Below, piece after piece: positions 5,527 through 61,351 of a stretch of 64,000 nucleotides of DNA. The DNA is from a virus, in the IMG/VR virus record IMGVR_UViG_3300025133_000023; one strand, given 5' to 3'. Each line of letters opens with the position of its first letter. The stretch's first letter is position 1. A program made the position numbers and the translations under genes. The notes under the pieces were generated by a model. The model was given only the letters and a program-made list of their open reading frames with translations, did not search any database and was not told where the DNA came from.

Positions 5527-8500
5527 TTAATAGTGATCAATTGCTGATGGGTAGAGGGGCCGACGGTTGTCGTTAATTCGTGTTCGAATATTTGCCCCAG
5601 GACGACGTCTGCGATATTCAGAGATGGCTCTATCCATTTCGCTTGACTGCATGTTCGCTCCCGTTCGTGCGCGACTTGTTGTCCCGGTAGAGGTGACCCT
5701 GGCGGTGGGAGAATGGGTCACGCCACTTCTTCCAGGCATTGCAGACTGAGGAGCTACTCCCTGTGGGGTGATATTGGCAGCAGGCATGTTAAGCATACTT
5801 CCATCTTGAATGTGCTGTAGCAGTCTAGGATCAAGCCCAGCCTCATCTCCTAGGGGAGCTCCACCATAGCCAGGACCACCCATTACACCCTGCATTAGGG
5901 CTGTTCCTGCAAGGCCTATAATCGCTGCAGTGCCTAGTGTTCTCTTGTGTTTTCCGAGTTCCTTAGTAGAGACGTTAATCTTTCCTAGCATCTCTTCGAC
6001 AAACCCAGCCATAGTGCTTTGGCGATTGACTGTGCTTACAGCCCGAGCCAACTGATCTTCACCAGCCATGCCATGCTCTATAGCATACCGAGCAGCCTTA
6101 AGTGTATCATCTAAAGACATATTGCGCTTGGCTCTGCTTAAGTTGAAGACCCTTCTCTTGATGCCACCTTCTTCATTCTGGTAGTTAGCCATGACGGTCA
6201 TGAGAGCTTTTCTGTCAGCTTCACCCCAGGCGAATCTCTGAGACTTTCCACCAATCTCAATATTGTAGCCTGACCTAATGTTTCCCTTGCCCATGAAGAT
6301 GTCTTCCATAACCCCAATGAACCTGCCAGTGTCCATTTGAGCTTTTGTGGAACCTTGTGGTCCATAGAGAGCTTTGATTAATTCATCTCCAACATTCATA
6401 GCTTCAGGAAGATGACGAGATTTTAGAGTAGCTGTTTCTTCAACAGCACTAAGGATAGAGTAGATTTTAGATCGCTGCTGCTCTGGCATATCCTCAAGGA
6501 GCATAGCGTATTTGACTTCCTCAAGGGTCCTCGAGACGCGCCCAACATCTTTACCGTAGAAGAGCTTTTTGGATTGCTGAATACGTAGATCACTGACAGC
6601 TTCTTGACTGTAGCCCTTTCTTTGCCCATAGTCGATCATACTATCAAAGACATCTTTGTTAACCTTCTTCTGCCAAACCATTGCATAGTCATATTGCCGG
6701 GCGATCTTTTCCATAGCGCCTTTTCTGCGCATCATGCGAACACCATCTGGGTCGGTCATGAGCTTAACGAAAGCCCTATCCGCGTCATAGTCCATACCCA
6801 TGCCTGGAGCAAGGCCTAGCTCGTAGTCGCTCTTCACCCCATTAACGGTAACGCTAACCAGTCTTTGAGCAATCTTGATGATCTCTTGATCCTTAGAGGA
6901 TCCTCCAGTGTAGACAGCAATTCGAGCAGGCTGAATAGATCCCTGATAAGCAGCAGGCATTCGGCCAACGATACCCGACCAAGAAGCCTCCCCTCTAAGA
7001 AAGGCTCCCTTCTCAAGCTTGCTAGGCAGGGTTCCGGCATCTTCCATTTCGCCAACAAGTCGCTTTGCCAGTTTCTGACTAATGAAGGCCGTGTTGCCAT
7101 CGGCTAAGTCCATCCCAACCCGAGTATTAATTCCTTCCCTAGCGCCAATCATGCTATCTTCAAGGATGTCACTAATAGCTGGCAAGCCAGCAACCTGAGC
7201 ATAGGAAGAGCCTGCCCCAAGCTTATTCTTAGTGAGGCTCCTCTTCGCGGACTGGTAAAGGCCAACAACCCCTGCCATTCCGCTTTGCTCATGTCCACTC
7301 ATGATCCGAGCTAGGCGGGTGTCCATGTCAAGATCCTCATATCCATCAGGAGCCAACAGCTGGAACATCTTTTTAACCTGATTACGGTAAGCCTTTTCCT
7401 GCAGCTCACCACCCTGTGCACGAGCATAGCCAGCTGTGCGGATCTCTGCCCCTAGCTCAGCGCTCACAGACTGCATACCAGGGACGTGCCAAGAGGTAGA
7501 CATACCTCTAGCCTTAAGGGCTCCATGCATTTCCTTTGGCATTTCTACTACAGCACCCCTGCCACGGAACCAATCTTCCTGAGTAATGTCTGCAAGACTC
7601 TGGGAGGCAAACTTCACTCTAGGTAAGCTTTCATCTATCTGGGTAGCGTCACCGGTCATGCTCCAAAGCATCTTGCCAATAGCATTGAAGTCATCAATAG
7701 TCGCAGCAGAGGAGGTGCTTCCATAGATGTCCCTAACAAGTGCTTCTGTTAGGTTCTCCCCACCAGACATGATCTGCTTGCTAAGGAGCATGTCAAAGTT
7801 ACGAGCCTCAACACTTCCCATACGGCCCTGAGCCAGATGGGGAAAGTCACCTATAAACTGCGATGAGCCTCCAATAGCCATTTTAAGTCTAGCAAGGCCG
7901 GCTACGTGACCGGAGTCTTTAAAGACACCAGTAAGCATTGACTCATAAGCAGCAACGGCTTCTGGACTACCTTGCTTTCCGCCATAGAAAATGCTACCGC
8001 CACCAAAGACAAGTCCAATTGACTCGCTTCGACCTAGCCCCAGAAACTTCGCTTTCTCAGCGACAGCACGTAGGATATCGGGAACTTCCTGTCCCGCAGC
8101 GTTGAGTGTCTTTCGTGTAGTATCATAAAGCTTACCTTGATCTTGAGCTAGGAACTGCTTAAGCCTAAGCATCTGTGGAGTCTCCCCCAAGGTTGCATTC
8201 AGCTTATCAAGACTGCCTCTGGCAGCAGCGAGGTCTGCCCTCCATGAGGCTGGTGAGCCATAATCGATAAGTCGCTTCTCTAGACCACGCTTTTTATCTA
8301 CAGCAGCAAGTGTTTTTTGAACATCGAAACTTTCAATTGGTGCCGAACTTAGCTTTCCTAACATAGCCCTTGCTTTCTTATAGTCCTTTCTAAGCTTATT
8401 CAATTCTGGATGCTTTAGACCGATCTTCTTCTCAAGATTAAGGATTTTACCCTTTAGCTTAAGCAGGTCCTCGGCAGCCTTAGAGTTATCAAGATACCTC

Positions 8501-10833
8501 TTCTGCTGAAGCCCTTCAAGCTCTTGTCCTGCAACAATCCTAAGTCCACTAACTGCCTGCTCGTGTACAGCGAAGAGGTCCTTCGTGAGAGGAGAGGTGT
8601 TGGTGATTTGGTCAATATGCTGAGCAAGCTTACTCATTTCCTTTACAGACATTCCCATGTGCTTTGCTAACTGAGCTAGATTCTTATCCATTATCTCTTC
8701 GGAACGAATCTTCAAAGTTGTTTTTGTTCCATGGAAAACCTTCATATGCTCAACAGCATCGATATCCTGCTTCACATGGAGACGTAAATATCCTTCATGG
8801 GAAAGCGTTGCCCCAACAAGAGTCTCTGACACATAACTTTCACCCGCAGCTCTAATGACCTGCCCAGACTTAGTTCCTGAACCAAGGCCTAAAGCCTGAC
8901 CTCGGCCTAGACTAATTCCACCTTTGGTTTCTGCAATACGTGCTCGAATAGCTTGAGCCATTTCTTCTGGGCTAAGGTTCCCAGCCGATAGCTTCTTAAG
9001 GGTTGCTTCTCCAAGAGGCAGACTAACAGGGGAGCCAGGCGCAGCAATAATATTGTAGCTCTTTGTCTTTTGAGCTCTTAAAGCTTTAGAGAAACCTTCA
9101 CGAATAAAAGACTCACCATCCATCATCCCCCATCGACGCAAGATGCCTGGGATTTTGCCTGGCTGACCATCTGCCCTAATCCCATCACCCAGGACATGCA
9201 AGGTAATAGCAGAAGGAGTCACATAACCGAACCCCTTCATGAATAGGTCCTTATACGTTGCTCCAGCATTCACTGGAACAAATCTCTTGAGAGCGCTGAC
9301 AGTCTTGACTGAACGACGACCTGTCCCCTTATCAAAGGCTCCCTCAATTTGAAAGCTTGGCCCCATGCCAACACTTTGGAGATGCTTAGAGTCCATAAGG
9401 TCAAGGACAAACTTCCCATCGTGTCCCTTCTTTCCCCACTCCTTGCGAGCTGTCTCTGTAGGAGTCCAGTTTAAATCTCTGACAAGCTGGAACAGCCTTC
9501 GACTTCGGTCAAAGCTGTGCTGGTCTTTAAACAAGTTCAATAGATTGTGAGAAGGACCACCGGGGGCTATTCTGAAGTGAGCCATATCGACAAACCCACC
9601 CCTGGTCAAAGTACCAGGACCAATAGCTTCTACGCTTGGGTTCTTCCTCATAAAAGCTTCCATCATGTCTGCAGTGTAGTGATCGTCTCCTAGAGCGGCT
9701 GGATCAAAGACGGTATTCCGAGCAAAGGCAGCGCGTAGCCTTTCCCCTGGAGTGGAGTGACTAGTTTCAAACTGACCAATCTTTCTCAGATCTGAATAGA
9801 AGCCTCTATAGGACATCGCTCTGTCTGCTCCAGACATACCTCCCATCTTCACAATCTGTGCGGCTAACTTATCATTTACAGACTGATTCGACCCAAGAAC
9901 ATGACCCACAGAGAAGATCGACATACCCTTAGGAGAAACAACTCGCTCTCCTGTTGGGGTTCTTTTCCCTTTGGGGCCTAGACTCTCATTCCCAAAGATA
10001 AACCTAAACTCTCGCTTGCTTCCTTTATACTTCACATTGAGTTCGCGGAAGGTAGAGCCATCTCTTCCTGTTAGCTTATGCATCGTCATGTGAGCATTAA
10101 CCTTAGCTAGTCCAGCACTTCTTCTCCATCCCTTAAAGCTTGCAACCTCTTCTCTTTCAAAGAAGTCAGGAACCTTCATCTCGCTACCAGCACCAAGGAA
10201 GCCCATGTTGCTATAGAAGCTACTAAGCCCATGCTTCTCCCAAAACATTCCAGTGCCAATAATCTGTCCACCCTTAGCTACACCTCCCCTGCGGGGACCG
10301 TGTTGTCCTTTAATGTCGATATACTTACTGGGATCAAGCATCTGCCACTTCTTCCAGAGAATGCTTGCATCACTACTGGACATTCCGGAAACAATTCCCT
10401 GCATTCGAGAAGCATAGGCAGTACGGTCTCCACTTGATCCTAGGGCTTGCTTGGACATTGACTGTGCTTCAAAGAGCGCCTGAAGCATGTTCTGTTTGTT
10501 AAGGCTTACTGCTGGGTCTGCAATAGCTGCTGCATAGGCAAAGGCTAGTCTCTTGGCTGAGTTGGGACCGAAGCTTCCACCCAGAGATTGCTTGAGCATT
10601 TTACGAGCATCCAGCACATTACCTGCAGCGTTCCTAGCAGCCAGACGCATACCCTTAATAGACCTAGCCGCCCTACCTGCTGCATCTGCTGCGGTAGTTC
10701 CCTGAGAAGCCTGGTTGGATTGAATGTCCCTATACACAGATAGTCCACCCAGACCCACAGCGCCCAACAATGGAGTGTAGGTGAAGACGGTGGCAAATGG
10801 GTTTCGACCCTTTCTGTTTTTATTGTCAGACAT
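5527..10833 (-). CDS. Putative virion single-chain two-barrel (DPBB) RNA polymerase, 1768 aa
   Basis: Beta-like motifs GMMDGESFI, MKVFHGTK (8722-8745) and HIDQITN are followed by beta-prime-like motifs GRMP (about 6955-6966) and GMDYDADR (DYDAD 6778-6792), in the canonical order. The gene lies inside the tail module. Confidence 0.7.
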   Translation of the reverse strand: MSDNKNRKGRNPFATVFTYTPLLGAVGLGGLSVYRDIQSNQASQGTTAADAAGRAARSIKGMRLAARNAAGNVLDARKMLKQSLGGSFGPNSAKRLAFAYAAAIADPAVSLNKQNMLQALFEAQSMSKQALGSSGDRTAYASRMQGIVSGMSSSDASILWKKWQMLDPSKYIDIKGQHGPRRGGVAKGGQIIGTGMFWEKHGLSSFYSNMGFLGAGSEMKVPDFFEREEVASFKGWRRSAGLAKVNAHMTMHKLTGRDGSTFRELNVKYKGSKREFRFIFGNESLGPKGKRTPTGERVVSPKGMSIFSVGHVLGSNQSVNDKLAAQIVKMGGMSGADRAMSYRGFYSDLRKIGQFETSHSTPGERLRAAFARNTVFDPAALGDDHYTADMMEAFMRKNPSVEAIGPGTLTRGGFVDMAHFRIAPGGPSHNLLNLFKDQHSFDRSRRLFQLVRDLNWTPTETARKEWGKKGHDGKFVLDLMDSKHLQSVGMGPSFQIEGAFDKGTGRRSVKTVSALKRFVPVNAGATYKDLFMKGFGYVTPSAITLHVLGDGIRADGQPGKIPGILRRWGMMDGESFIREGFSKALRAQKTKSYNIIAAPGSPVSLPLGEATLKKLSAGNLSPEEMAQAIRARIAETKGGISLGRGQALGLGSGTKSGQVIRAAGESYVSETLVGATLSHEGYLRLHVKQDIDAVEHMKVFHGTKTTLKIRSEEIMDKNLAQLAKHMGMSVKEMSKLAQHIDQITNTSPLTKDLFAVHEQAVSGLRIVAGQELEGLQQKRYLDNSKAAEDLLKLKGKILNLEKKIGLKHPELNKLRKDYKKARAMLGKLSSAPIESFDVQKTLAAVDKKRGLEKRLIDYGSPASWRADLAAARGSLDKLNATLGETPQMLRLKQFLAQDQGKLYDTTRKTLNAAGQEVPDILRAVAEKAKFLGLGRSESIGLVFGGGSIFYGGKQGSPEAVAAYESMLTGVFKDSGHVAGLARLKMAIGGSSQFIGDFPHLAQGRMGSVEARNFDMLLSKQIMSGGENLTEALVRDIYGSTSSAATIDDFNAIGKMLWSMTGDATQIDESLPRVKFASQSLADITQEDWFRGRGAVVEMPKEMHGALKARGMSTSWHVPGMQSVSAELGAEIRTAGYARAQGGELQEKAYRNQVKKMFQLLAPDGYEDLDMDTRLARIMSGHEQSGMAGVVGLYQSAKRSLTKNKLGAGSSYAQVAGLPAISDILEDSMIGAREGINTRVGMDLADGNTAFISQKLAKRLVGEMEDAGTLPSKLEKGAFLRGEASWSGIVGRMPAAYQGSIQPARIAVYTGGSSKDQEIIKIAQRLVSVTVNGVKSDYELGLAPGMGMDYDADRAFVKLMTDPDGVRMMRRKGAMEKIARQYDYAMVWQKKVNKDVFDSMIDYGQRKGYSQEAVSDLRIQQSKKLFYGKDVGRVSRTLEEVKYAMLLEDMPEQQRSKIYSILSAVEETATLKSRHLPEAMNVGDELIKALYGPQGSTKAQMDTGRFIGVMEDIFMGKGNIRSGYNIEIGGKSQRFAWGEADRKALMTVMANYQNEEGGIKRRVFNLSRAKRNMSLDDTLKAARYAIEHGMAGEDQLARAVSTVNRQSTMAGFVEEMLGKINVSTKELGKHKRTLGTAAIIGLAGTALMQGVMGGPGYGGAPLGDEAGLDPRLLQHIQDGSMLNMPAANITPQGVAPQSAMPGRSGVTHSPTARVTSTGTTSRARTGANMQSSEMDRAISEYRRRRPGANIRTRINDNRRPLYPSAIDHY

Positions 10834-10835
10834 TC

Positions 10836-13800
10836 TTATAGGCCATATCTCTTACGGAACTGATCTTCCTCGCCCATGCGAGAGTCGTTTACTTCAAGAT
10901 CAAGTGTGTGGCTTGGGTTAGCTGAAGAGTAGCTAATGGTCCTCATGTTAGTAGAGCTGAAACCATTGGCCCCAAAAGCTAAGTGACCCAAGTCTCGGTC
11001 ATTGGTGGGCTCAAAGTAATTTCCCTGAGCAATCACCTCATCTGTTAGATAAGGTTTTCTAGAGAGAAGACGCGACTGGCTTTCCCACATTCCATAATCA
11101 TGGATGTCTTTCCCTTGTTGCTGAACAACCCTTAGTTTAACATCTTCAAGGTCAACAGCAGGGTTAAAGCCAACCCAATCTACAGCAGGCATCGTGTCAC
11201 CAAGCTCAGCCTCAGTACGCTGCAGCTTTTCGAAGTCGCCAAACGACATCCAGCTAGGGGCTTCCTTTTCATATCTCGAATATCTGGCTGTGCTGAAATC
11301 TTCTCCAGCAGTAGAGCCCCAGTCTTGAACAAGCCGACCTAGCTTTTCATCTCCTGTTCTAAGATAGTCAGCCTTAAGCCATTGTGCCTCATAAATGCGA
11401 TGGAGAGACTCGGGTACTAAATCAAGGATTTCCTTTCGTCTTCGCTCGCTAGTGGTGCTAGCAAACGCCTCGAAGAAGTCTTGTTCCTCACGAGGCAAAG
11501 CAGCTTTCACAGCTGCAAGTCTATCAAATGGGTTGACTCCAGTTACCGTCTTACTGGCAAGCTTCTCGTAAAGAGAAGCGTTCCGTGTATCTCCAGCTTC
11601 ATGGGCCTGCTCTTCAAGCATCTTCCATTTATAGTATTCAAGCTTATCGTAGTGGTCATTGAATCCACGAATCGTCTTAATGTGTCCAGGGATGGCATCT
11701 ACACCGAACCAGTCATGGAGGGTCTGGTTAATGAATGGTCTGAACCAATCACGCCACATTTCCTTAAGTCCCCAGAAAGCGAACCGAGTACCATACACAA
11801 CAGTGTCTTCATACTCTGAGATTGGGTCAAGATACTTGAACAACTTTTCGACAGGGCGGAAGCCAAGAGGGATAATCTTAGAGGGACCAGAGAAGACATC
11901 ATGGATAACTTCATTGAAGCCCTTCCATGCCATGCCTGCTGCTCTGCCAACTAGCCCACGTCGCTTGGTGTTCTCGTTAAGAGCTGGAAGATAGCTTTGC
12001 CATTCTCTCTTAGCTCTCTTCTGCTGCATGCGAGACTCTGCTGCTTGAACAAACTTAAGAGCCTCTTCTCCAAACTGTCCCTGAGCTGTACGGAACTTGA
12101 CTGCTCTCTGAACTTCTCTGAATTCCTGAGACCATGCAGCAACATCACCAAGAACGGCATACTTGTAAACTAGCGGCCAACTTTCCGGATCCTTTCCTTC
12201 TAGTTCGGGGTGCAAGGCAGCGTAACCCTTGCCAGGTAGTCGATACTCTCCACCCGCTACATTGCTATAGGGATCACCGAAGCGTAGTTCTTCGGGCATC
12301 CAGCTAGGCATGTTGTTAGGGATGGGGTTGTACTGCTGTATGGAACTAAGAGGACGGGGGAAGAATCGACGGATTGGCTCAGACAAGAATCCAAAACCAC
12401 CTAGGTTCTGTTCCCAGTAACGCCTAGTCCATGAGTCAATAGCATTCGCTGACTGGAGCTGTGAGCCTTGAGTTCCTGGTACGTCTACTCCAGCAAGATG
12501 CTTACCAACCTCTCCCAAAGTGAAACCCCACAGACCGGGGCCTTCAACAAGGTTCTGATAAAAGAACTGACCCAGTCGACGTTTCCCGCTATAGGGACTG
12601 TCTGGAGTTCCTGGCTGCAGGCCACCCAGAGAATAGGCTGGCTGAATCTCCAGGGAGTTAGAGATGTGCTTCAGCTCTAGGCTACCTGTTTCTCTGTTAA
12701 CTCGAGCCCACTCTCCTACATGCATTAAGCGAGCTGGCTTAATCAGCTTGCCAATAGGATCGAGGAAGAGCTTAGCGAAAGGAACCTCTTCAAAGGCCTG
12801 CCCAGTAATTGGGTATGGCCTATCTTTATAGTTTCTTTCTTCTAGCTCATAGGTAAAGTGCTTACGATAGAACTTGCCAATAGGAGAGTGCCACGCACCA
12901 CCAACAGGGTTCCAGAAATCAAAGTCTTCGTCTTCACCCCATACGGACTTCTCAATAGCTCTCGACTTAGACAACGCCAACCAGTGAGGCTTGAAGTGAC
13001 TAATAGCGCCACCTTCCCAAGCAGTACCACCGCCTTCCCACCATCTACCCTTACGGACTGGCTGAAGCTTTCGTCCTTCATAGATCGCACTTAACTCTTC
13101 AGTAGTCTCAGACGTAGCAAGCTTTCCGGCAAGCACCGACCAAGCAGCAGCAGCTGTGACGAATCGCATACCCCAAGATGAGCCAAAGGGAAGACTCCAC
13201 TGTTTGATGTTCTTTATTCCACCAGCACGCCAGAACTTGTCACCTAGCTCAGAGCGAGCAATGACTCTCTTAGGGTTAGCCCCAGCCCATGCAGCTTGAA
13301 CCTGAAGCCCCATTCTCTTCCAGGGGTTCTCTTCTCCTACAATCCTAGTAGCCCAACTGATGTCGTGGTTGATTTGCTTGGTCATCCACTTCGGGATCTC
13401 TCCACCCTGGATGCCTTCTGTTACCGAGTGTCTCCAGGCAGAGCGTTTGGAGATTTCGTTAATAGCATAGACCGAGTCACGCATACGCTGCTGACCCTTA
13501 CTAAGGACAGCTCCGCCGGACTTCTTAGACTCATTAACTAATCCACGTTCATTATAGATGTTCCAGAACTGAGTAGCATACGTTCCAGTGCTAGCATGAA
13601 TTCGCTGAAGGATTGTTCCACCCTTCATACTTGGACGCATTTCCTTACGAAGCATACGGTCTAGGACATGACCAACTCCCACACCAATAATACCCATACC
13701 AATAGCTGTTGAGCTATCAGTGGAGCCTGGCATGTTGGTTTCAAACCATCTTCTCCAGCCACTACCAATGAACGGGACGGGGCTGAGGGCATTCGTAACT

Positions 13801-53405: not shown

Positions 53406-53407
53406 TC

Positions 53408-53638: not shown

Positions 53639-53663
53639 CCCGTAGAAGAAAGGAGAATGCTAG

Positions 53664-54068
53664 ATGTCTGAGAAAATCAAGTGGCGGTTCCAGTTCCGTA
53701 CGGGACTGGACAAGCAGTGCAGCTGGACCAACCCCGACGAGATGTATCCACATTTCGATCGAGAGATGATCACCGAAAACATGATCACGGGATTCATGTC
53801 CAAGTACCTTTGGGGACCGAACAAGAAGACGGTCCTCGAAGTTCATGACGAGCACAAGGGTGACAAGCACCTGCAGGACGTGACCGCTGCCAACACCTAC
53901 TGGGTGTGGCGCACCGGCTTCACGATCTACGTGTGCCACGGTGTCCACTTCAAAACCAACAACATCGAGCCCAAGAAGATCGGAGCCCACAAGTGTCACA
54001 TCTCGGAAGAGGTGATCGACACGGTGTGGGAGCTCATGTTCGAGGGTGCGGCTGAGGAGAACGGTTAG
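53664..54068 (+). CDS. Hypothetical protein, 134 aa
   Basis: SD AAGGAG. Confidence 0.7.
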   Translation: MSEKIKWRFQFRTGLDKQCSWTNPDEMYPHFDREMITENMITGFMSKYLWGPNKKTVLEVHDEHKGDKHLQDVTAANTYWVWRTGFTIYVCHGVHFKTNNIEPKKIGAHKCHISEEVIDTVWELMFEGAAEENG

Positions 54069-54254
54069 ATGGCCAAGAAGAAGTTTGAGAGGAACAACAG
54101 TCTCGGGGGACGAACCGCCTCGCGGGTGAACAAGCTGATCTCGCAGCGACGGCAGGTCGCTCTTGACAACCGGTGGGATCGCGGACCTCGCGTGACCACT
54201 ACCAACCGTAACAAGGACTGGAAGCGCATCAGCATCCAGTCCGAGGAGAGCTAG
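54069..54254 (+). CDS. Small basic protein, 61 aa
   Basis: TAG-ATG abutment. Confidence 0.6.
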   Translation: MAKKKFERNNSLGGRTASRVNKLISQRRQVALDNRWDRGPRVTTTNRNKDWKRISIQSEES

Positions 54255-54256
54255 TC

Positions 54257-55105
54257 ATGTTCGGAATAGCACAGCAGTTCAGCGAAGAGGGCCTGACCAA
54301 GAAGGTGCTGGAGCGCGTCTTCTTCCTGGCCTTCGGCGTCTGGGCCATGTTCTTCATCATGGACCACATGGCGAGCACGTGGGCGACTGTCATCGCCTCT
54401 CTCCTGGCGGTGGGTACGGCTCTCAGCAGCTCCCTGCCGCGTTGGGCGTTGCTCTGGTACGAGCGTCGCCACTTCCTGATCGAAATCACCTTCGGGGGGG
54501 TGTCATGGCTCCTCAGCGGGGGAGCTGGCGGCATCGGACTCGTCAACTTCATGTTCGCGTCGACGGCGGCTGTGAGCTTCATCAAGATGCTCAACGCCCG
54601 CCGAGGCACACTCAAGGGAGAAACCTTCTACCAATACCTCCTCAAGAGCCGCTTCCACTGGCTCTTTGCCTACGGGTTCCGACCCATGGACAAGAACTGG
54701 CGATGGCCCTCGACCCGTGTCGAGGACGAGGATGGCGTACACTACGAGTTCGAGAAGGCGGGCTTCCTTGATTGGAAGTACCTGCTCGGGCACTGGCGGA
54801 ATCGATCGATCAAGGGCTACGACTACTGGGTCACGCCTGAAGTCCATCCCATGCCCCCGCTGTGGATGAAGTACGTCAACAGTAGCCAGTACTGGCTTGC
54901 TGTCGATGACCACAACGCTTCGATGGCTTCCAGCCAGCACATGACCCAGCTCGTGGGAGTGCGGAACGAGGCCGTCAAGAAGCTCGAAGAGCTGCTCTCC
55001 AACAAACCCTCCAACAAGAACCAGAACTCGGTGTGGATCGCACGGATGCATCGCCTCCAGATCCTCATCGACTCCCTCAACACCCAGATCGAAGGGATTA
55101 AGTAG
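54257..55105 (+). CDS. Membrane protein, 282 aa
   Basis: Four N-terminal TM-like segments; TAGTCATG junction. Confidence 0.75.
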   Translation: MFGIAQQFSEEGLTKKVLERVFFLAFGVWAMFFIMDHMASTWATVIASLLAVGTALSSSLPRWALLWYERRHFLIEITFGGVSWLLSGGAGGIGLVNFMFASTAAVSFIKMLNARRGTLKGETFYQYLLKSRFHWLFAYGFRPMDKNWRWPSTRVEDEDGVHYEFEKAGFLDWKYLLGHWRNRSIKGYDYWVTPEVHPMPPLWMKYVNSSQYWLAVDDHNASMASSQHMTQLVGVRNEAVKKLEELLSNKPSNKNQNSVWIARMHRLQILIDSLNTQIEGIK

Positions 55106-55107
55106 TA

Positions 55108-55584
55108 ATGAACATCGACAAGCCCAAGTGGGCGCAACTCCTTGACAGCGGAACGGATCTCCTCCTCCGTGGTGGAGACACCATCATGGACAACACCTTG
55201 GGGCGGCTGAAAGCTCCTCTGGCTGATGAGGAAAAGGCCCGCATCTACGTCGAGACCACGACCAATGTCCTCTCCCACACCACGGGAGCGGACCTCGGTG
55301 ACCAGGAGAAGCTGGCGAAGTTGGCAGCGATAGAGGACCAGCTTGCCCAGTATGGCGAGCTCAACCGTCAGCAGCGGAACAGTGTTGGGAAGCAGTTGCT
55401 CAAGGACATGAGCAACCCCGACACGTTCGTCGCGGAAGAAGAGAAGAAGGAAGTGGAAGAGCGTCCCGCGTGGCAGTGGGTGCTGTTCCTCATCGTTAAT
55501 TTGTTTATGCTCCTGTTCAACCGGGGACTCTACACCAACAAGGAGGTCGAGAACTACATCAACCAGAGCAAGGAGAAGAAGTGA
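55108..55584 (+). CDS. Hypothetical protein with C-terminal TM segment
   Basis: ORF track. Confidence 0.7.
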   Translation: MNIDKPKWAQLLDSGTDLLLRGGDTIMDNTLGRLKAPLADEEKARIYVETTTNVLSHTTGADLGDQEKLAKLAAIEDQLAQYGELNRQQRNSVGKQLLKDMSNPDTFVAEEEKKEVEERPAWQWVLFLIVNLFMLLFNRGLYTNKEVENYINQSKEKK

Positions 55585-55835
55585 TGCGTACCAGAATCCT
55601 CATGGTCGGTGAGATCGACGGCGACGGCATCCAGTTCCAGCTGGATGAAACCAAGAACACCTACATGTGGAAGGGTGAAGCCACCCTCGGCTACGGCATC
55701 CACCGCATCGTCCGCGACACGGACATGAACGAGGTGGAAACCCTCCACGATGTTCAGCAGTCCGTTGCTGGCGCCCTGTTCGAGTTCAACAAGCTGGCCG
55801 TCCTGATCAAGGCTGGTGCTTTCAAGTCCAACTAG
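55584..55835 (+). CDS. Hypothetical protein, 83 aa
   Basis: TGATG overlap; SD AAGGAG. Confidence 0.7.
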   Translation: MRTRILMVGEIDGDGIQFQLDETKNTYMWKGEATLGYGIHRIVRDTDMNEVETLHDVQQSVAGALFEFNKLAVLIKAGAFKSN

Positions 55836-55907
55836 AGGAGGCAGAGGAAATGTGCATTCGTGGTCCACCGTCCTTCTCTTCAACAGAGACGGACACCAAC
55901 AACATAC

Positions 55908-55922
55908 GCTCTTGAAAGGAGC
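55908..55922 (+). promoter_or_regulatory. Conserved hairpin, copy 3 (GCTC-TTGAAAG-GAGC)
   Basis: Same loop, compensatory stem change. Confidence 0.65.
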
Positions 55923-55928
55923 AATCTC

Positions 55929-56372
55929 ATGGAAGACATCCGCAACAAGTACTTCATCCTCGAAGACGATATGGGGAACCAGTACGTTGAGTACGCCACC
56001 TCCGACACCCAGGCCTTGGAGCAGGCAGAAGAAAAGTGGCCCACGGTCACCTTCGTCCGCATCACCTTCCACGGAACCAACCCCCCGCTCTGGTACAAGC
56101 AGAGCAACAAGGAGAACAAGATGAACACCAACACCCAGGCCGGATTCACTCTCATCGAGCTCATGATCGTCATCGTGATCATCAGCATCATCGGGGCCCT
56201 GGTCCTCTCCAACTTCGACATCATCGGCACCCTCCTCGGTGCCGTCACGTTCGTCGTGTTCGTGCTCGTGGGTTGCGCCATCAGCGCGGGCTACAGCTCG
56301 GTCAAGTCGATCAAGCAGAAGATGGACAACACGATGTCTTTCACCCCCAACAACAACAAGAAGGGAAACTAG
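55929..56372 (+). CDS. Protein with an internal type IV prepilin-like N-methylation motif (own SD and ATG at 56121)
   Basis: MNTNTQAG-FTLIELMIVIVIISIIGALVL. Confidence 0.8.
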   Translation: MEDIRNKYFILEDDMGNQYVEYATSDTQALEQAEEKWPTVTFVRITFHGTNPPLWYKQSNKENKMNTNTQAGFTLIELMIVIVIISIIGALVLSNFDIIGTLLGAVTFVVFVLVGCAISAGYSSVKSIKQKMDNTMSFTPNNNKKGN

Positions 56373-56374
56373 TC

Positions 56375-57790
56375 ATGGGTGCACACTGGCTCGGACAGAA
56401 CTACATCGCCTGCAAGGGTGACGGCACCACCACCGCCAAGGGTGGAATCGCATTGAGCCCGAAGGAGGTCACCTGCCGCCGATGCCGTCGGTGGATCGTG
56501 ACCCTCATGGGAGCGAAACGATTCGACCGAAACTGGACAACGGAAGACGTCCAGGCCGCTGAGATCAACAACAACCCGGAGAACACCGACATGCCCCCGA
56601 CCGACCCCACCACGCCCGCCGCCCCCAACGCCTACAACTGCGCCAACTGCAACAAGGAGCAGAAGCTGACGATCGTCACCGACCAGAAGGTCTTCTGCGA
56701 CGAGAAGTGCATGCTGGAATACGTGCAGGCGAGTGCCAAGGAGCAGGATGATATGGACAAGGAGATCGACGACCTGATCGCCAAGGAGCGGGAGATCAAC
56801 AGCCCCAAGGGCACCACCCCCAAGACGGAGAGCAAGACCATGCCCGACCCGACCCCCACCGCCCCGACCAACGACAACCCCAACAAGGATGACAAGACCA
56901 TGACCGACCCGACCCCCACCGCCCCGCCCCTGTTCACCTACGACCCCGAGAACAAGGAGACCGCGTTCCACTACCAGAACCTCCCCGCCGCCATGGCTGA
57001 CTGGAAGGAGGCGATCGTCTTCAGCTACATGGGCAAGGACGACAAGAAGGTCATCCGCCGCGAGGAGATGGAGGTCAAGGACCTGATGAACCTGTTCGAG
57101 ACCATCCTGAACAACCGCACGGACAAGTACGGCTTCAACCCCATCCACCAGTACGTCTCCCTGACCGGTGACGTCACGCGGATGTTCGTCTACGCCGTGG
57201 ACCGCAAGACGAAGAAGGCGACCCACACCCTGATCGAGCTCAAGCTCAAGGGCAAGGGCGACAAGGCCCGCGTGGTGGACACCTGCCACAGCAACCCCCG
57301 GGGCAAGGGCAACCACCCCAACATGGTCGCGCTCGGCGTGGCCTTCTCGGCCTTCAAGGCCAACACCAACGACAAGGAGAGTGACATGGAGAAGAAGAAC
57401 GTGTTCATCCGCATGGCGCACAGCGTCAAGGACATGGCCATCAAGTTCGGCAAGAAGATGATGGGCTGGGCCCGCAGCTTCATGGGCTGGAACATCGAGC
57501 AGCGCTACGCCATCCTGGGTTCCGTGAGCGCGATGTACGGCGGCATGTGGTTCTGGTACCTGATGGGTGGCGCGCTGCCCATCTACGTGTTCGGCGTGAG
57601 CAACATCCTCTGGGTCGCGACCTGCGTCGGCTTCCTGGCGTCTTACGCGATCCTGGCCTACCTCTCCTACGCGGCCATCTACGCCGTCGTCGCGGGACTC
57701 GTGGCTCTGAAGAACACCGTGGGTGAGTTCATGGCCCTGAGCGATGCGTCCGTCTCCCCCGAGATGACCACCGCTGCCGCCAACGCCTAG
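56375..57790 (+). CDS. Multidomain protein: Zn-finger-like motifs, Pro/Thr repeats, C-terminal TM segments
   Basis: CRRC; CANC...FCDEKC; KTM(P/T)DPTPTAP twice; near-saturated GC3. Confidence 0.8.
   Translation: MGAHWLGQNYIACKGDGTTTAKGGIALSPKEVTCRRCRRWIVTLMGAKRFDRNWTTEDVQAAEINNNPENTDMPPTDPTTPAAPNAYNCANCNKEQKLTIVTDQKVFCDEKCMLEYVQASAKEQDDMDKEIDDLIAKEREINSPKGTTPKTESKTMPDPTPTAPTNDNPNKDDKTMTDPTPTAPPLFTYDPENKETAFHYQNLPAAMADWKEAIVFSYMGKDDKKVIRREEMEVKDLMNLFETILNNRTDKYGFNPIHQYVSLTGDVTRMFVYAVDRKTKKATHTLIELKLKGKGDKARVVDTCHSNPRGKGNHPNMVALGVAFSAFKANTNDKESDMEKKNVFIRMAHSVKDMAIKFGKKMMGWARSFMGWNIEQRYAILGSVSAMYGGMWFWYLMGGALPIYVFGVSNILWVATCVGFLASYAILAYLSYAAIYAVVAGLVALKNTVGEFMALSDASVSPEMTTAAANA
56833..56926 (+). 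repeat. 34-nt direct repeat (1 mismatch), 60-nt period
   Basis: CAAGACCATG(C/A)CCGACCCGACCCCCACCGCCCCG at 56833 and 56893. Confidence 0.85.
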
Positions 57791-57875
57791 TCTGGCAACC
57801 AACAACCCATAGCTGAAGTCTAACCCAGGGGAATGGCACGTGGACCCATACTAACCGTGCCCAAAAGGAGAACAC

Positions 57876-58382
57876 ATGTTCAACTGGTTGTGGAGCAAGA
57901 TCAAGGCTCCCTTTGAGACAGTTCCCGAGACCTTCGAGGTTCGGGATAGCGAGAACAACGCCATCGTGGCATACCAGCGGCCTGAGGAGATGGCCATCAA
58001 GCGGTGGGTGGCTGGAGCAGGCTACTCGATCCGTGAAGACATCGAAGAGGCCGTGGAGCTGGGGCAGGCGAGCACGCCCATGATCGGACTCGCCGTCCTC
58101 TACATCGGGATCATGTGGATCGGCTTGCTGGTCAGTGTGATCTTCGGCATGGCCCTGAAGGGAGCTGGTCTCCTGGCGATCTTGGTAGTGGTGTGGAAGA
58201 TCACCTACGTCATGGTCGTCGCCACCCTGTTCCTCGTCAGCATCTACGGGGCGTTCCTCGGACTCGCTCTCGTGATCGCGAAGCGGGGATGGAAGCTGTT
58301 CAACCGCTACATCCGGCGTGAGCCGATGTCGTGGAAGGATGCCTTCCAGCGTACCGTGGGCCGATTCGTCTACGCCAACTAA
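57876..58382 (+). CDS. Membrane protein, 168 aa
   Basis: SD AAAGGAG; hydrophobic C-terminal half. Confidence 0.75.
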   Translation: MFNWLWSKIKAPFETVPETFEVRDSENNAIVAYQRPEEMAIKRWVAGAGYSIREDIEEAVELGQASTPMIGLAVLYIGIMWIGLLVSVIFGMALKGAGLLAILVVVWKITYVMVVATLFLVSIYGAFLGLALVIAKRGWKLFNRYIRREPMSWKDAFQRTVGRFVYAN

Positions 58383-58513
58383 CCCATAGCTAGGAGAACA
58401 ACATGAACCCGATTAGGGCTCCTTGAGACTAACTGTTAACCTCGACCATGGGCGTATGTCGTTAAAGATCGCCCACCTTCGAGACAATCAACGTTACACG
58501 GAGATAGAGAACA

Positions 58514-59179
58514 ATGGCTACCAAGAGCAACGACCGCACCGGCCTCAACCGTCACCCCTTCAGCGATACGGGCGTCCACCCGTGGCGTTACCTGAACGTT
58601 CACATCAGCAAGATGCCGAAGCCCGTCCCGATGGTGGACTTCGAGCGGCTCGCTGAAACGGAGGGCGTCAGCCCCACCTTCATCGGCTACATCCGCAGCC
58701 ACGAGGGTGACTTCCTGGGTGATGATGGCATCGCGTGGACCGGCAACTACCGTGGGCTGAACGGGTTCCTGACGAAGGCTCTGTTCGAGCGGATCGATGG
58801 CATCCGCGAGATCATCGTCAAGAAGTCCTTCCTCGTGAAGGCCGACAAGACGATCAAGGGTGGGCACATGCCCACCTCCAAGTACAGCGAGAGCCTGTAC
58901 TGCCACCTCGTCATCGGTCCCGTCAAGGGCGAGAACCTGCAGCCGGACACGTCGTACGTCCAGAAGGGAGACAAGTACTACAAGGTGGTGGAGCTGAAGG
59001 GCTTCAACATCGTGGACGTGAACGACAACAGCTACGGGCTGCCCAAGCCCTGCGAGCACCCCGACGCCCCCAAGATCCGCAAGTGGGTCCAGGGGCTCTA
59101 CGCGGCTCACGCGGCGAAGATGGCCAAGGCCAAGGCCAAGGCGGCTGACGTCGACACGACCGAGGACAACCCGCTCTAG
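58514..59179 (+). CDS. Hypothetical soluble protein, 221 aa
   Basis: Strong codon bias; KAKAKA tail. Confidence 0.75.
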   Translation: MATKSNDRTGLNRHPFSDTGVHPWRYLNVHISKMPKPVPMVDFERLAETEGVSPTFIGYIRSHEGDFLGDDGIAWTGNYRGLNGFLTKALFERIDGIREIIVKKSFLVKADKTIKGGHMPTSKYSESLYCHLVIGPVKGENLQPDTSYVQKGDKYYKVVELKGFNIVDVNDNSYGLPKPCEHPDAPKIRKWVQGLYAAHAAKMAKAKAKAADVDTTEDNPL

Positions 59180-59193
59180 GTCAACAGAGCGAT

Positions 59194-59227
59194 CAGGGTG
59201 GGGGCTCTTAATTGAGCCCTCGCCCTG
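59194..59227 (+). promoter_or_regulatory. 14-bp RNA hairpin with 2 G-U pairs
   Basis: CAGGGTGGGGGCTC-TTAATT-GAGCCCTCGCCCTG; no U-tract. Confidence 0.6.
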
Positions 59228-59251
59228 GGTGGGAGAAAGGAGGTAGCAACA

Positions 59252-59464
59252 ATGGCCGCATTTGATGACTCTTCGTATCGCCGTGCTGCTTACAATGCGT
59301 TCTGCCCCCTGTGCTACACAAGGGTCAGAAAGAATGATCTCATCTGTCCACCCTACGGTGGTGGTAAGTGGGCACACTACTCGTGTGCGTTTGAGGTCAA
59401 TCATGGACGACCGCCCCAGCCCCCCCGGAGGGAGAAAGAAGAAAACCATGACCAAACTGAGTAA
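59252..59464 (+). CDS. Small Zn-binding protein (CPLC...WAHYSC)
   Basis: SD AAGGAGGT. Confidence 0.55.
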   Translation: MAAFDDSSYRRAAYNAFCPLCYTRVRKNDLICPPYGGGKWAHYSCAFEVNHGRPPQPPRREKEENHDQTE

Positions 59465-59609
59465 TCTACTCGAAACCTCAATCCCACCCCCGGAGGGGAA
59501 TCAAACCCTCCCCGGAGGGGAGTACAACCAGAACAACAACAACCATTCCTACTACTACTCTACTACTACTATAACCACAACTAACAATACCCTTAGAAAG
59601 GGAAAACAA

Positions 59610-60107
59610 ATGAGCGTTTTCGCAACCATGACTGCATGTGCAGTCGGTACCACTGTCACTGTCGGTCTGATTAAGACCGTCAAGGACCTCATCGTCCACC
59701 GCAAGGACCGCAAGCACGAGGCCTGGACCTGGAAGAAGAAGCTGAAGAGCTTCGCCTGGAGCTTGGCGTCCCTGCCTCTCACCGTTCTCAGCACGCCCTG
59801 GGAGGTCTTCATCAACGACCTGGGCTGGGGCCACACCTACAGGGGTGTGTGGTACCATCGTGTCCTGGCTGCTGCTCTCGTGGGCATCATTGCCTTCTTC
59901 AAGCCCCTGTGCTTGGCGACGGCTTTGATGTTCTACGGCTGCACCGGCCTTTACACGTGGTTCAAGGAGTGGGAGAACGACTACCACAACTCCTACCGTA
60001 GGGTCGTTAGTGAGTTCAGCAAGGCTGAGCCTGCTGCCACGCCCAAGCCGTCCGGCATCCACCACGAGTGGAAGGTCGTCCCCCCGGAGGGAGCTGGTGC
60101 CGAGTAG
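59610..60107 (+). CDS. Membrane protein (the frame is also open from ATG 59448)
   Basis: AAAGGGA SD-like site before 59610; the upstream in-frame part is low-complexity N/Y/T. Confidence 0.7.
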   Translation: MSVFATMTACAVGTTVTVGLIKTVKDLIVHRKDRKHEAWTWKKKLKSFAWSLASLPLTVLSTPWEVFINDLGWGHTYRGVWYHRVLAAALVGIIAFFKPLCLATALMFYGCTGLYTWFKEWENDYHNSYRRVVSEFSKAEPAATPKPSGIHHEWKVVPPEGAGAE

Positions 60108-60300
60108 GAACTACTGGAAGGCAAAGTATCGCGGAAGCGTCTGCATTCCCGGAGGGCATACGATTAACGGCGGTACGTTGATCTGTGTGTGGGGAGACCG
60201 GACAAACAAGCGATACGCATGCAAGCGCTGTGCGGAGAAGCATGACAAGAAGCAGAAGGTGGAGAAGAAGAAGCAGGACCCGCAAGGCTCCCTCTTCTAG
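60097..60300 (+). CDS. Small Cys-containing basic protein
   Basis: GTG after GGAGGGAG; YACKRCAE. Confidence 0.55.
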   Translation: MPSRNYWKAKYRGSVCIPGGHTINGGTLICVWGDRTNKRYACKRCAEKHDKKQKVEKKKQDPQGSLF

Positions 60301-60900
60301 ACTCCCCACTCAACGTTAACCTTAACTCCCTGTATGGGGACCTTAGTACACTGGTTAAGATTGAGGTTCGAGTTGTCTTCCCATACACAGCAATGTGTAT
60401 TCAGATGCTTGAATCGACGTTTTTGCTAGTGTGTTGAGGTCCCCCTATAGGGAAGAAAGGAGGTGTGAGCTTGGGTATACGAACCCAAGCGAGGAGAATG
60501 CCAGCACCCTAGGGGAAGGGGCTGGTTTGGGATTGTGAAGGTGTGAAGTTAGCGGAGTTTGGCCTAAACTCCGCGTAGTGACACCCAATCAACCTACCTG
60601 TCATTTGCAAGGGAATCTGCCCCATGTAGCATAGCTCTCTATGTGGGACAAGTTGTACTATATGCTGACGCTGTGCCTTGCAAGGCTATGACACCCCACT
60701 ATGAGCTTTCTGCAATCTCCCTTCAACAGCTATGCTGATTACCCCCCTGGCAACAGGGGGCACCATGGGAGCAACCCTACTAGCAAGGGTTTAATGTGCG
60801 GCGTTCAACTCCGCTTCAACAATCCTCAATCAAAGAGGGAGACAAGCATGATGCTGTTGTTGGGGAGTAAGATGAGAGGGTGAGTCTTTGTGGGGGACAG
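60301..60900 (+). ncRNA. Candidate structured non-coding RNA region
   Basis: Hairpins at 60383-60400 (GCAA loop), 60469-60490, 60552-60574 and 60743-60760 (GCAA loop); no convincing ORF. Confidence 0.4.
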
Positions 60901-60911
60901 ACCCTTAAATC

Positions 60912-60974
60912 AACCCTACCCCCATTAAACGAACCCTACCTCCATCTAAACACGAACCCTACCTCCATCTAAAC
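60912..60974 (+). repeat. Three tandem 20-23-nt repeats (AACCCTACCTCCATCTAAAC consensus)
   Basis: Units at 60912, 60932 and 60955. Confidence 0.8.
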
Positions 60975-61332
60975 TACTCTTCGAGCTCTTAACCCTATTC
61001 ATATTCAAGGGGAGAGACTCTGATAAGGTTAACTAACTCTACTAGGGTCATACCCATAGGGAGTATGGTAATGACAAAGGGGATAAGCGTTCGGGTCTGA
61101 TGACACCTCACTCACTAAGCCTAACCAACCTCACCTCCTACCTATCTTTCCATCTTCACCACTAACAAGGGCTAGCATCCTAACCAACAACAACGCCTGT
61201 CTTACTTCACCAACACTCAACCTAGGGTACATACCCAAACTACCCACTAACCTCTCCCTTTTACGGTACTAGGCACAAGGTTCAAGTGTCCAAAGAAGAG
61301 AGCTTTTTTGTTGTGAAACCTGTTAATCACCC

Positions 61333-61351
61333 TGATTCTTGAAAGGAATCA
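61333..61351 (+). promoter_or_regulatory. Conserved hairpin, copy 4 (TGATTC-TTGAAAG-GAATCA)
   Basis: Same loop, different fully paired stem. Confidence 0.7.

What the first reader, a model, noticed from the sequence alone, without database searches (positions are those of the whole stretch)
5527..61351. System hypothesis: an injected RNAP drives a separately wired early arm
Inference from several independent observations. A virion RNAP candidate and several Gly-rich ejection-type proteins are made late. The divergent right arm has its own repeated cis-elements, its own codon and stop-codon style, no obvious sigma70 TTGACA/TATAAT consensus that I could find, and host-interference-type cargo (prepilin-like peptide, macro domain, many small membrane proteins). 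This would be a host-RNAP-independent early programme in a sheath-bearing phage.
Basis: inference. Interest (0 to 1): 0.8.

Follow-up and report, generated by a model that had tools for sequence, protein, structure and literature searches.

The report
Tail-encoded RNA polymerase plus codon-split early arm
An uncultured marine contractile-tailed phage of about 190 kb encodes a new family of cell-type RNA polymerase-like protein among its tail genes, and its opposite gene arm uses a sharply different codon and stop-codon style; the idea that the first transcribes the second is plausible but not shown.

Summary
The 1768-aa protein (5527-10833, minus) has an invariant RxP...DxDxD signature across about 20 metagenomic relatives. 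A model of residues 1180-1660 matches only beta-prime-type RNA polymerase subunits. The gene sits between the tape-measure-position gene and an M23-peptidase giant, and this order is kept in distant relatives.

The plus-strand arm (46393-62491) has GC3 of 0.84 and TAG stops (17/22). The structural arm has GC3 of 0.43 and TAA stops (27/30). Intergenic GC is alike in both arms, so the bias acts on codons. Independent marine assemblies bridge the junction. A relative only 32% identical shows the same split and also carries the polymerase homologue.

The prepilin motif, the macro domain (at 62798-63256, outside the stated range) and many membrane proteins are real.

The link is unproven. The four "TTGAARG" hairpins are real, but they bury the Shine-Dalgarno sequence and are absent from the distant polymerase-bearing lineage. 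The lack of sigma70 consensus applies to both arms. Virion packaging, polymerase activity and early timing are all inferred.

Other notes of this scan, on this same genome, had already flagged the polymerase and the hairpins.

Verdict: new variant of known virion RNA polymerases, plus an unusual conserved two-dialect genome.

The parts
5527..10833 (-). 1768-aa single-chain two-barrel RNA polymerase-like protein of a new, metagenome-only family, with a hydrophobic C-terminal segment at residues 1633-1651
   Evidence: There is no Pfam, PHROG, PDB-sequence or cultured-phage hit. The family has about 20 representatives. The AF2 model of residues 1180-1660 has pLDDT 72.9. All of the top 50 Foldseek hits are RNAP beta-prime/Rpb1-type chains. 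VIA Z is 9-11 over 205-253 residues.
6778..6792 (-). DYDAD (D1348, D1350, D1352), the candidate Mg-binding catalytic loop
   Evidence: All three Asp are invariant in alignments of 16-21 sequences. hhalign places the loop on NADFDGD of E. coli beta-prime and on DFDID of phi14:2 gp66.
6955..6963 (-). R1291-x-P1293, counterpart of the beta-prime NRAPTLH motif, 57 residues before the Asp triad
   Evidence: Invariant in 16 full-length homologues. It aligns to RIP of gp66.
10836..15077 (-). 1413-aa protein in the tape-measure position, ending 2 nt before the polymerase gene starts
   Evidence: Gene order. Relatives have 1319-1433-aa proteins at this place. The only family hit is a weak Gly-zipper.
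1..5523 (-). Giant protein (more than 1841 aa, cut by the window edge) with an M23 peptidase domain, followed in relatives by baseplate genes
   Evidence: PF01551 at 30.2 bits and PHROG endolysin-type hits. Relatives are 2021-2088 aa and are followed by Baseplate_J.
18599..20443 (-). Tail sheath, which marks the phage as contractile-tailed
   Evidence: phrog_16991, E 1e-66.
34698..40312 (-). Terminase (35204-37741) flanked by three Gly/Ala-rich basic proteins (34698-35204, 38046-39020, 39020-40312); their function is unknown
   Evidence: Composition. Terminase. No Pfam hit.
45957..46392 (.). 436-nt AT-rich divergent control region between the two arms
   Evidence: Sequence. It contains GGAGGTATAGAG, also found upstream of the first divergent-arm gene in L012, and with two extra bases (GGAGGTAGGTAGAG) in L013. 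It also holds two copies of CCTA-N-GGGGAA.
46393..62491 (+). Right arm of about 27 tightly packed small genes, nearly all without known family, with GC3 0.84 and TAG stops; presumed early genes
46369..46387 (+). Hairpin copy 1 (ACACTC ttgaagg GAGTGT), 5 nt before the ATG at 46393
   Evidence: The RNA fold is an 8-bp stem with a GAA triloop, -8.2 kcal/mol, with the SD in the stem.
48326..48342 (+). Hairpin copy 2, 6 nt before the ATG at 48349
   Evidence: An orthologous copy is present in L012.
55908..55922 (+). Hairpin copy 3, 6 nt before the ATG at 55929
61333..61351 (+). Hairpin copy 4 (TGATTC ttgaaag GAATCA), 9 nt before the ATG at 61361
   Evidence: Its stem changes are compensatory.
56121..56372 (+). 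83-aa prepilin-like peptide (MNTNTQAG/FTLIELMIV...)
   Evidence: PF07963 N_methyl, 33.8 bits against a cutoff of 21.2.
62798..63256 (+). Macro domain protein, with lower GC3 (0.63) and a TGA stop, just past the strongly biased block
   Evidence: PF01661, 26.8 bits against a cutoff of 22. GC3.
40315..44043 (-). 1242-aa protein with a staphylococcal-nuclease domain, used as the anchor to find relatives of the arm junction
   Evidence: PF00565, E 1e-11. Homologues P0024 (82%) and P0025 (32%).

Best explanation
The 1768-aa protein is a divergent single-chain two-barrel (beta/beta-prime type) RNA polymerase. It is made late together with the tail. It is probably carried in or on the tail next to the tape-measure-position protein and delivered with the DNA, as in Thermus phage P23-45 (polymerase fused to the tape measure) and crAss-like phages.

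Once inside, it would start transcription of at least the first genes of the divergent plus-strand arm, a block of small takeover-type genes. That arm is written in a different codon dialect (C/G-ending codons, TAG stops), most likely so it can be translated well on the unmodified host machinery. The late arm uses A/T-ending codons, including AGG, the codon read by the tRNA-Arg(CCU) that another note of this scan reports elsewhere in the genome (not checked here).

Shown: the polymerase-like fold and motif, the tail-module position, the codon split and its conservation.

Inferred: enzymatic activity, packaging, injection, early timing, and which polymerase reads the arm.
For: Polymerase-like protein:
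- RxP and DxDxD are invariant in the 16 full-length family members, and nearly so (at least 90%) once fragments are added. Distant members have the canonical DxDGD.
- The AF2 model has pLDDT 72.9 and pTM 0.70.
- The top 50 Foldseek hits are all RNAP largest subunits, at E 1e-3 to 1e-2.
- VIA gives Pol I Z 11.0 over 224 aa and Mtb beta-prime 9.4 over 253 aa. P23-45 gp96 scores 8.4 (99 aa) and 8.0 (193 aa), and QDE-1 7.2 over 251 aa. These alignments are longer than those to bare DPBB domains.
- BFVD hits are mostly viral RNAPs.
- The sole hhalign hits land on the catalytic loops of rpoC and gp66.
- One homologue carries a 3'-5' exonuclease domain.

Tail-module position:
- Start/stop gaps of 2-3 nt join the gene to its two giant neighbours downstream of the sheath.
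- The same order occurs in five other contigs.

Codon split:
- The split itself.
- The junction is bridged by two Logan assemblies, and both arms are present at similar depth in four marine runs.
- The distant lineage L013 has GC3 0.70-0.80 with 9 of 11 TAG stops, against GC3 0.29-0.45.
- That lineage carries family member P0010 after its sheath.

Precedents: PMC10770324 and bioRxiv 10.1101/2020.03.07.982082.
Against: - There is no evidence of packaging, activity or timing.
- The second barrel (DPBB-B) was not folded. hhalign against rpoB found nothing, and profile searches of PDB sequences and Pfam found no RNAP.
- Individual Foldseek E-values are marginal, and the model rests on 22 sequences.
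- No repeated promoter-like motif was found in the right arm. The most repeated 7-mers are Shine-Dalgarno-like.
- The hairpin is absent from L013.
- The codon bias is confined to third positions, with intergenic GC of 0.49. Translation-level selection explains this without any special polymerase.
- Language-model features of residues 540-1060 resemble tape-measure proteins most closely (scores 0.82-0.86, a lead only).
Confidence: 0.4

Rival explanations
1. The two features are real but not coupled. The right arm is read by host RNA polymerase from non-consensus or host-specific promoters, and its C/G-ending codons and TAG stops only tune early translation to the host tRNA pool. The tail-encoded polymerase has a narrower or different job: a few pre-early transcripts elsewhere in the 190-kb genome, priming, or helping pull DNA in.
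For: - The bias is confined to codon third positions, and the TAG:TAA ratio (17:3) matches the general G-over-A preference.
- No polymerase-specific motif recurs.
- The sigma70 scan is equally empty in both arms.
- In P23-45 the virion enzyme reads only a 9-kb pre-early region.
- Most of the genome lies outside the window.
Against: - The split and the polymerase co-occur in two deeply diverged lineages.
- T-runs and classical terminators are scarce in the arm (TTTT 0.52 per kb against 1.85 per kb), whereas the capsid gene has a strong one.
Confidence: 0.33
2. The DYDAD protein is a structural tail or ejection protein, for example a second tape measure. It keeps a double-psi barrel with an acidic loop but does not polymerise RNA.
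For: - It sits in the tape-measure/hub position.
- Its nearest language-model neighbours are tape-measure clusters.
- It has a hydrophobic C-terminal segment.
- There is no sequence-level RNAP hit.
- DPBB-only proteins also score Z of about 8.7.
Against: - Three Asp plus RxP are invariant over sequences only 15-20% identical.
- RNAP subunits outrank bare barrels and align over 200-250 residues.
- P23-45 shows that tape-measure character and polymerase activity coexist.
Confidence: 0.15
3. The right arm is an assembly chimera or a recently acquired foreign island.
For: There is an abrupt GC step at about 46 kb.
Against: - Single contigs in two runs span 42-50 kb, and both arms have proportional depth in four samples.
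- The same split exists in a relative with 32% protein identity.
- The genes are phage-style orphans.
- Intergenic GC is not raised.
Confidence: 0.02

Closest known systems
Thermus phage P23-45 gp96 (virion RNA polymerase fused to the tape measure protein; PMC10770324)
   Same: - It is a single-chain two-barrel polymerase encoded in the tail-length/hub part of the structural operon.
- A metallopeptidase and membrane segments are in the same neighbourhood.
- Sequence similarity to known RNAPs is limited to the DxDxD region.
- The structural match is Z 8.0-8.4.
   Different: - Here it is a separate 1768-aa gene between a 1413-aa and a roughly 2030-aa gene, not a fusion.
- The tail is contractile, not a siphovirus tail.
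- The fourth motif residue is Ala or Lys in close relatives.
- The fold matches cellular beta-prime better than gp96.
- No second (non-virion) polymerase was seen in this window.
crAss-like phage phi14:2 gp66 virion RNA polymerase (PDB 6VR4)
   Same: - It is a giant virion-module protein flanked by two other giants (1421, 2180 and 1797 aa there).
- The fourth position of the motif is not Gly (DFDID against DYDAD).
- hhalign aligns the RxP and Asp loops in register.
- gp66's early transcripts also lack a common promoter motif.
   Different: - hhalign gives E 0.19 and probability below 1%, so there is no family-level homology.
- gp66 belongs to a podovirus.
- gp66 is closer to QDE-1, whereas this model is closer to cellular-type subunits.
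phiKZ/AR9-type jumbo phage virion RNA polymerases
   Same: - The host virus is a contractile-tailed phage that brings its own beta/beta-prime-type polymerase.
- The structural hits include the AR9 and phiKZ beta-prime-like subunits, which come from the non-virion enzymes (Z 9.0 and 8.4).
   Different: - Those enzymes are split into 4-5 subunits and are not encoded in the tail operon (from memory, they are packaged in the head).
- This one is a single chain in the tail module.
N4 virion RNA polymerase and its hairpin promoters
   Same: It is an injected giant polymerase reading early genes. From memory, N4 promoters are short hairpins with 3-nt loops, and the hairpins here fold as 6-8 bp stems with a GAA triloop.
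   Different: - The N4 enzyme is T7-like and is not a two-barrel polymerase.
- The hairpins here contain the Shine-Dalgarno sequence 5-9 nt before start codons, so an RNA-level role is simpler.
- The resemblance was not tested.

Membership tests
Two-barrel (double-psi beta-barrel) RNA polymerase superfamily | Barrel A carrying an invariant DxDxD metal-binding loop | tested here: met
   D1348, D1350 and D1352 are invariant. The modelled barrel at residues 1248-1358 matches beta-prime/Rpb1 chains. The loop aligns to NADFDGD.
Two-barrel (double-psi beta-barrel) RNA polymerase superfamily | R-x-P motif (beta-prime NRAPTLH) upstream of the Asp loop | tested here: met
   R1291 and P1293 are invariant in 16 sequences and are aligned to gp66 RIP.
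Two-barrel (double-psi beta-barrel) RNA polymerase superfamily | Bridge helix and trigger-loop region after barrel A | tested here: inconclusive
   Long helices follow the barrel in the model. VIA alignments to RNAP subunits run to model residue 400 or so, over 205-253 residues. I did not map which helices correspond.
Two-barrel (double-psi beta-barrel) RNA polymerase superfamily | Second barrel (B) supplying two basic residues | tested here: inconclusive
   K698 and R1011 are invariant and lie in beta-like motif contexts (K-x-F-H-G-x-K; R-M-G-S-V-E). The region was not folded, and hhalign against rpoB found nothing.
Two-barrel (double-psi beta-barrel) RNA polymerase superfamily | Template-dependent RNA synthesis needing Mg and the three Asp | not testable with these tools
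   Needs biochemistry.
Virion-delivered phage RNA polymerases | Gene in the late structural module | tested here: met
   The gene lies between the tape-measure-position gene and the M23 hub-side gene, with 2-3 nt gaps. This synteny holds in five other contigs.
Virion-delivered phage RNA polymerases | Protein present in virions and injected | not testable with these tools
   The phage is uncultured and no proteomics exists.
Virion-delivered phage RNA polymerases | Early genes transcribed independently of host polymerase from own promoters | tested here: inconclusive
   No recurrent promoter-like motif was found. The hairpins are SD-linked and lineage-restricted. The sigma70 scan is uninformative.
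crAss-like gp66 family | Detectable sequence homology across the polymerase core | tested here: not met
   hhalign gives E 0.19 over 91 columns only. tblastn against 50,697 phage records found nothing.
P23-45 gp96-type tape-measure fusion | Polymerase and tape measure in one polypeptide | tested here: not met
   The ORFs are separate, with stops at 10836 and 5527. The same holds in the relatives.

The most novel reading that the evidence does not exclude
This phage lineage keeps two translation dialects as a timing device. An early arm is written in C/G-ending codons with TAG stops and is started by a tail-delivered single-chain cell-type RNA polymerase. A late arm is written in A/T-ending codons with TAA stops and depends on phage tRNAs. 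A late change in tRNA supply or in TAG termination would then silence early genes and favour late ones. This would be a host-independent early programme in a contractile-tailed phage, driven by a previously unknown polymerase family.
Probability: 0.15. Interest if true: 0.85.

Novelty: new variant of a known kind. Interest (0 to 1): 0.66.

Why it matters
Injected two-barrel RNA polymerases are known from crAss-like podoviruses, from one Thermus siphovirus and, as multisubunit enzymes, from phiKZ-like jumbo phages. A single-chain, cell-type version encoded beside the tape measure of a contractile tail would extend the strategy to a new morphotype. It would also add a family with no cultured member and no Pfam or PHROG model, and it bears on how a 190-kDa enzyme could travel through a tail.

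Separately, the synonymous-codon and stop-codon split between two arms (GC3 0.84 against 0.43) is conserved between phages with 32% protein identity. It is an unusually clean natural case for studying how phages schedule translation. It may also help host prediction for this marine group.

Tried and rejected
- **Direct searches with the 1768-aa protein.** Pfam, PHROGs, PDB sequences and tblastn against INPHARED found nothing. The same was true for distant members P0016 and P0011.
- **Family profile searches.** The family profile against PDB sequences gave no RNAP. Pfam scans of all members gave only one exonuclease domain.
- **First AF2 run.** Three sequences, residues 880-1660, pLDDT 39; unusable.
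- **ESM Atlas.** It returned only an unnamed cluster and tape-measure-like neighbours below 0.9.
- **Search for related loci.** IMG/VR scans with right-arm protein R1 and with the family alignment found no relatives. Alignment A4 was too divergent to use for a scan. The metagenome scan with the nuclease protein gave only a 1.1-kb contig.
- **Access limits.** The 151-kb contig carrying P0006 could not be searched, and the 142-kb contig of P0001 has no DNA on hand. No whole genome is held for the window.
- **Word-index profile search.** It added no new members.
- **RNA elements.** There are no Rfam matches and no tRNAs in the window.
- **Sequencing runs.** No RNA holder is listed, so expression could not be examined.
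- **TTGAAAG heptamer.** It is not enriched as a bare word.
- **CCTA-N-GGGGAA.** Four plus-strand copies lie in the two large non-coding regions. This is too few to call a promoter.
- **Chimera or foreign island.** Rejected.
- **Stop-codon recoding.** Rejected, because all frames are open under table 11.
- **A second polymerase in the window.** Rejected, because there is no other DxDxD open frame except a chance DMDGD in the sheath.
Full report
**What the window is.** It is part of an uncultured marine phage.
- Its own nuclease protein occurs on a 189,626-bp contig, and marine metagenome runs hold the sequence.
- From 1 to 45956 all genes are on the minus strand. They include the terminase, portal, major capsid and tail sheath.
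- They also include an M15 peptidase, a 1242-aa staphylococcal-nuclease protein and, at the far end, three giant genes.
- From 46393 onward, about 27 short genes run on the plus strand.

**The polymerase candidate: sequence evidence.**
- The 1768-aa protein (5527-10833, minus) has no Pfam, PHROG or PDB-sequence match and no match in 50,697 phage records.
- Exhaustive profile search found a small family of 20 representatives, all from metagenomes.
- Every member that covers the region has D-x-D-x-D at the same place. Close relatives have DFDKD or DYDAD, and distant ones have DLDGD, DVDGD, DYDGD or DNDGD.
- In 16 full-length sequences of 17-78% identity the invariant residues are G491, G573, G649, K698, R1011, R1291, P1293, D1348, D1350, D1352 and E1466.
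- R-x-P followed about 57 residues later by DxDxD is the signature of the beta-prime-type double-psi barrel.

**The polymerase candidate: structural evidence.**
- A first model from three sequences failed (pLDDT 39).
- A second model of residues 1180-1660 from 22 sequences reached pLDDT 72.9 and pTM 0.70. It shows a beta-barrel ending at the Asp loop, followed by long helices.
- The top 50 Foldseek matches in the PDB are all RNA polymerase largest subunits: bacterial beta-prime, plastid, archaeal, vaccinia, AR9 and phiKZ. E-values are 1e-3 to 1e-2.
- An independent aligner ranks Pol I, Pol II, archaeal, Pol IV, vaccinia, mycobacterial and ASFV largest subunits first, with Z 9-11 and mostly 205-253 aligned residues.
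- These rank above bare barrels such as Cdc48-N (Z about 8.7 over 85-95 residues).
- P23-45 gp96 scores Z 8.4 and 8.0, and QDE-1 scores 7.2.
- Viral structure hits are mostly RNA polymerases.
- hhalign of the family against E. coli beta-prime and against phi14:2 gp66 gives a single hit each. Both are weak (E 0.085 and 0.19), but both land exactly on NADFDGD and DFDID, and for gp66 also on its R-I-P motif.
- One family member has a 3'-5' exonuclease domain at residues 234-389.
- I rate a polymerase-type fold at about 0.85 and real polymerase activity at about 0.65.
- The second barrel is unproven.

**Is it a virion protein?** Only position speaks to this.
- The gene is separated by 2 and 3 nt from its neighbours. 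These are a 1413-aa gene in the tape-measure position, after the sheath, tube and small chaperone-sized genes, and a giant protein of more than 1841 aa with an M23 peptidase.
- The order sheath ... ~1320-1430 aa ... polymerase-like ... ~2020-2090 aa M23 ... Baseplate_J recurs in relatives at 75%, 39%, 34%, about 25% and about 20% identity.
- The protein has a C-terminal hydrophobic segment.
- Language-model features of its middle part resemble tape-measure proteins, which is a lead only.
- This resembles P23-45, where the polymerase is the N-terminal part of a tape measure that also holds membrane and metallopeptidase domains. It also resembles phi14:2, where gp66 lies between two other giant virion proteins.
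- I rate delivery with the DNA at about 0.55.

**The right arm.**
- The codon split is extreme. Right-arm genes have GC3 0.71-0.94, with third positions C .52, G .34, T .10 and A .05. Left-arm genes have GC3 0.37-0.55. GC1 and GC2 are the same in both arms.
- Stops are TAG in 17 of 22 right-arm genes, against TAA in 27 of 30 left-arm genes. The TAG:TAA ratio fits the general G-over-A preference.
- Intergenic GC is 0.49 in the right arm and 0.45 in the left arm. The bias is therefore selection on synonymous sites, not regional composition.
- It is not a chimera. One 18-kb contig and one 28-kb contig from two runs span the junction at even depth, and two further marine samples hold both arms at similar low depth.
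- It is not recent either. A relative whose nuclease protein is only 32% identical (L013) has a divergent arm with GC3 mostly 0.70-0.80 and 9 of 11 TAG stops, against a structural arm with GC3 0.29-0.45.
- Walking along a second contig of that phage, matched to the first through an identical 481-aa protein, reached a 1708-aa gene after a 1388-aa gene downstream of the sheath. Its first 674 residues are identical to family member P0010, which has DYDGD.
- Polymerase and codon split therefore co-occur in two deeply separated lineages.
- This shows a conserved architecture. It is not a functional link.

**Cargo.**
- Twenty right-arm proteins, the larger genes of the arm, were scanned against Pfam. 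Only the prepilin N-methylation motif scored (56121-56372).
- A macro domain lies at 62798-63256, past the strongly biased block.
- Thirteen of 29 proteins have TM-like segments.
- This fits a host-takeover or early module, but timing is inferred.

**Cis-elements.**
- Four plus-strand hairpins with loop TTGAARG lie 5-9 nt before start codons at the heads of gene groups. Counting all hairpins of this kind in the window gives 5, against 0.12 expected.
- Six copies, including two in the 82% relative L012, pair in all 36 cells, with compensatory changes at two pairs.
- Folded as RNA, they become 6-8 bp stems with a GAA triloop (-6 to -8 kcal/mol). The 3' strand is the Shine-Dalgarno sequence AGGAG, paired to CUCUU.
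- The simplest reading is translational control or transcript-end protection, not a promoter.
- The distant polymerase-bearing lineage has none.
- No other motif recurs more than the Shine-Dalgarno sequence does.
- Sigma70-like sites are absent upstream of right-arm genes, but the left arm is also at chance.
- T-runs are about 3.5-fold rarer in right-arm coding sequence. The only textbook terminator seen follows the capsid gene.
- GGAGGTATAGAG stands upstream of the first divergent-arm gene here and in L012, with a related GGAGGTAGGTAGAG in L013. It is a candidate start region, untested.

**Verdict.**
- The observations are real and two of them are notable. One is a new, metagenome-only family of single-chain cell-type RNA-polymerase-like proteins in a contractile-tail module. 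The other is a conserved two-dialect genome.
- The system hypothesis that joins them is reasonable by analogy with P23-45, crAss-like, N4 and phiKZ phages. It rests on inference; I give it about 0.4.
- The main rival, at about 0.33, is that the codon style serves early translation regardless of which polymerase reads the arm.
- Other notes of this scan on the same genome had already flagged the polymerase motifs and the hairpins. I tested both here.

Noticed in passing
window 48178-48327: A 150-nt intergenic stretch before the second right-arm gene folds far better than shuffles: -66.7 kcal/mol against -46.0 +/- 3.9, z -5.25. Its hairpins keep pairing through compensatory changes in the 82% relative L012, for example GGGGTA-ATCA-TACCCC against GGGGCA-ATCA-TGCCCC. 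It is a candidate structured leader or small RNA, with no Rfam match.
   Followed up: partly
window 49112-49247 and 49699-49849: Two intergenic modules share an identical 17-mer (CCCAGGGCTGCGTCTGG, followed by the hairpin partner CAACGCAG) directly after a stop codon. They also share an identical GGGTAACCAATCCC just before the next ribosome site. The function is unknown.
   Followed up: partly
window 60301-61360: A 1,060-nt stretch has no GC3-biased open frame (one 60-aa ATG frame at 60701-60883 is listed). It contains a 23-nt unit, AACCCTACCTCCATCTAAACACG, repeated 2.9 times at 60912-60974, and several short palindromes. Possible readings are an origin, a protein-binding array or an RNA gene.
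   Followed up: no
window 46393-48177: The first right-arm protein (594 aa) has an N-terminal membrane segment, 25 cysteines and an internal 67-nt duplication (47517-47583 and 47895-47961, 85% identical) encoding a CxxCGSNACSCEED-type motif. In the 82% relative it is replaced by two shorter genes.
   Followed up: no
window 40315-44043: The 1242-aa protein combines a staphylococcal-nuclease domain (residues 633-750) with an N-terminus that looks like a DEDD exonuclease (FLDIETFGLE). It also shows weak similarity (E 0.03) to residues 556-701 of the polymerase-like protein.
   Followed up: partly
L013 7695-8126: The distant relative encodes a 143-aa protein with a release-factor RF-1 (GGQ) domain near the arm junction. 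This is of interest because the two arms use different stop codons. No counterpart is present in this window.
   Followed up: no
P0006 (L009-L011), residues 234-389: One polymerase-family member carries a 3'-5' exonuclease domain (PF01612, E 4e-27) and lies on a 151-kb contig.
   Followed up: partly
model of window 5854-7296 against BFVD: The closest viral structure matches by coverage include an uncharacterised giant protein of Acinetobacter jumbo myovirus vB_AbaM_ME3 (TM 0.41 over 485 columns) and several crAss-like giant proteins. This may point to unrecognised polymerase-like proteins in cultured phages.
   Followed up: no
window 48349-49008: The second right-arm protein (219 aa, about four TM-like segments) contains a second pilin-like stretch, RFTLIEEMIIMG, at residues 28-39.
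   Followed up: no
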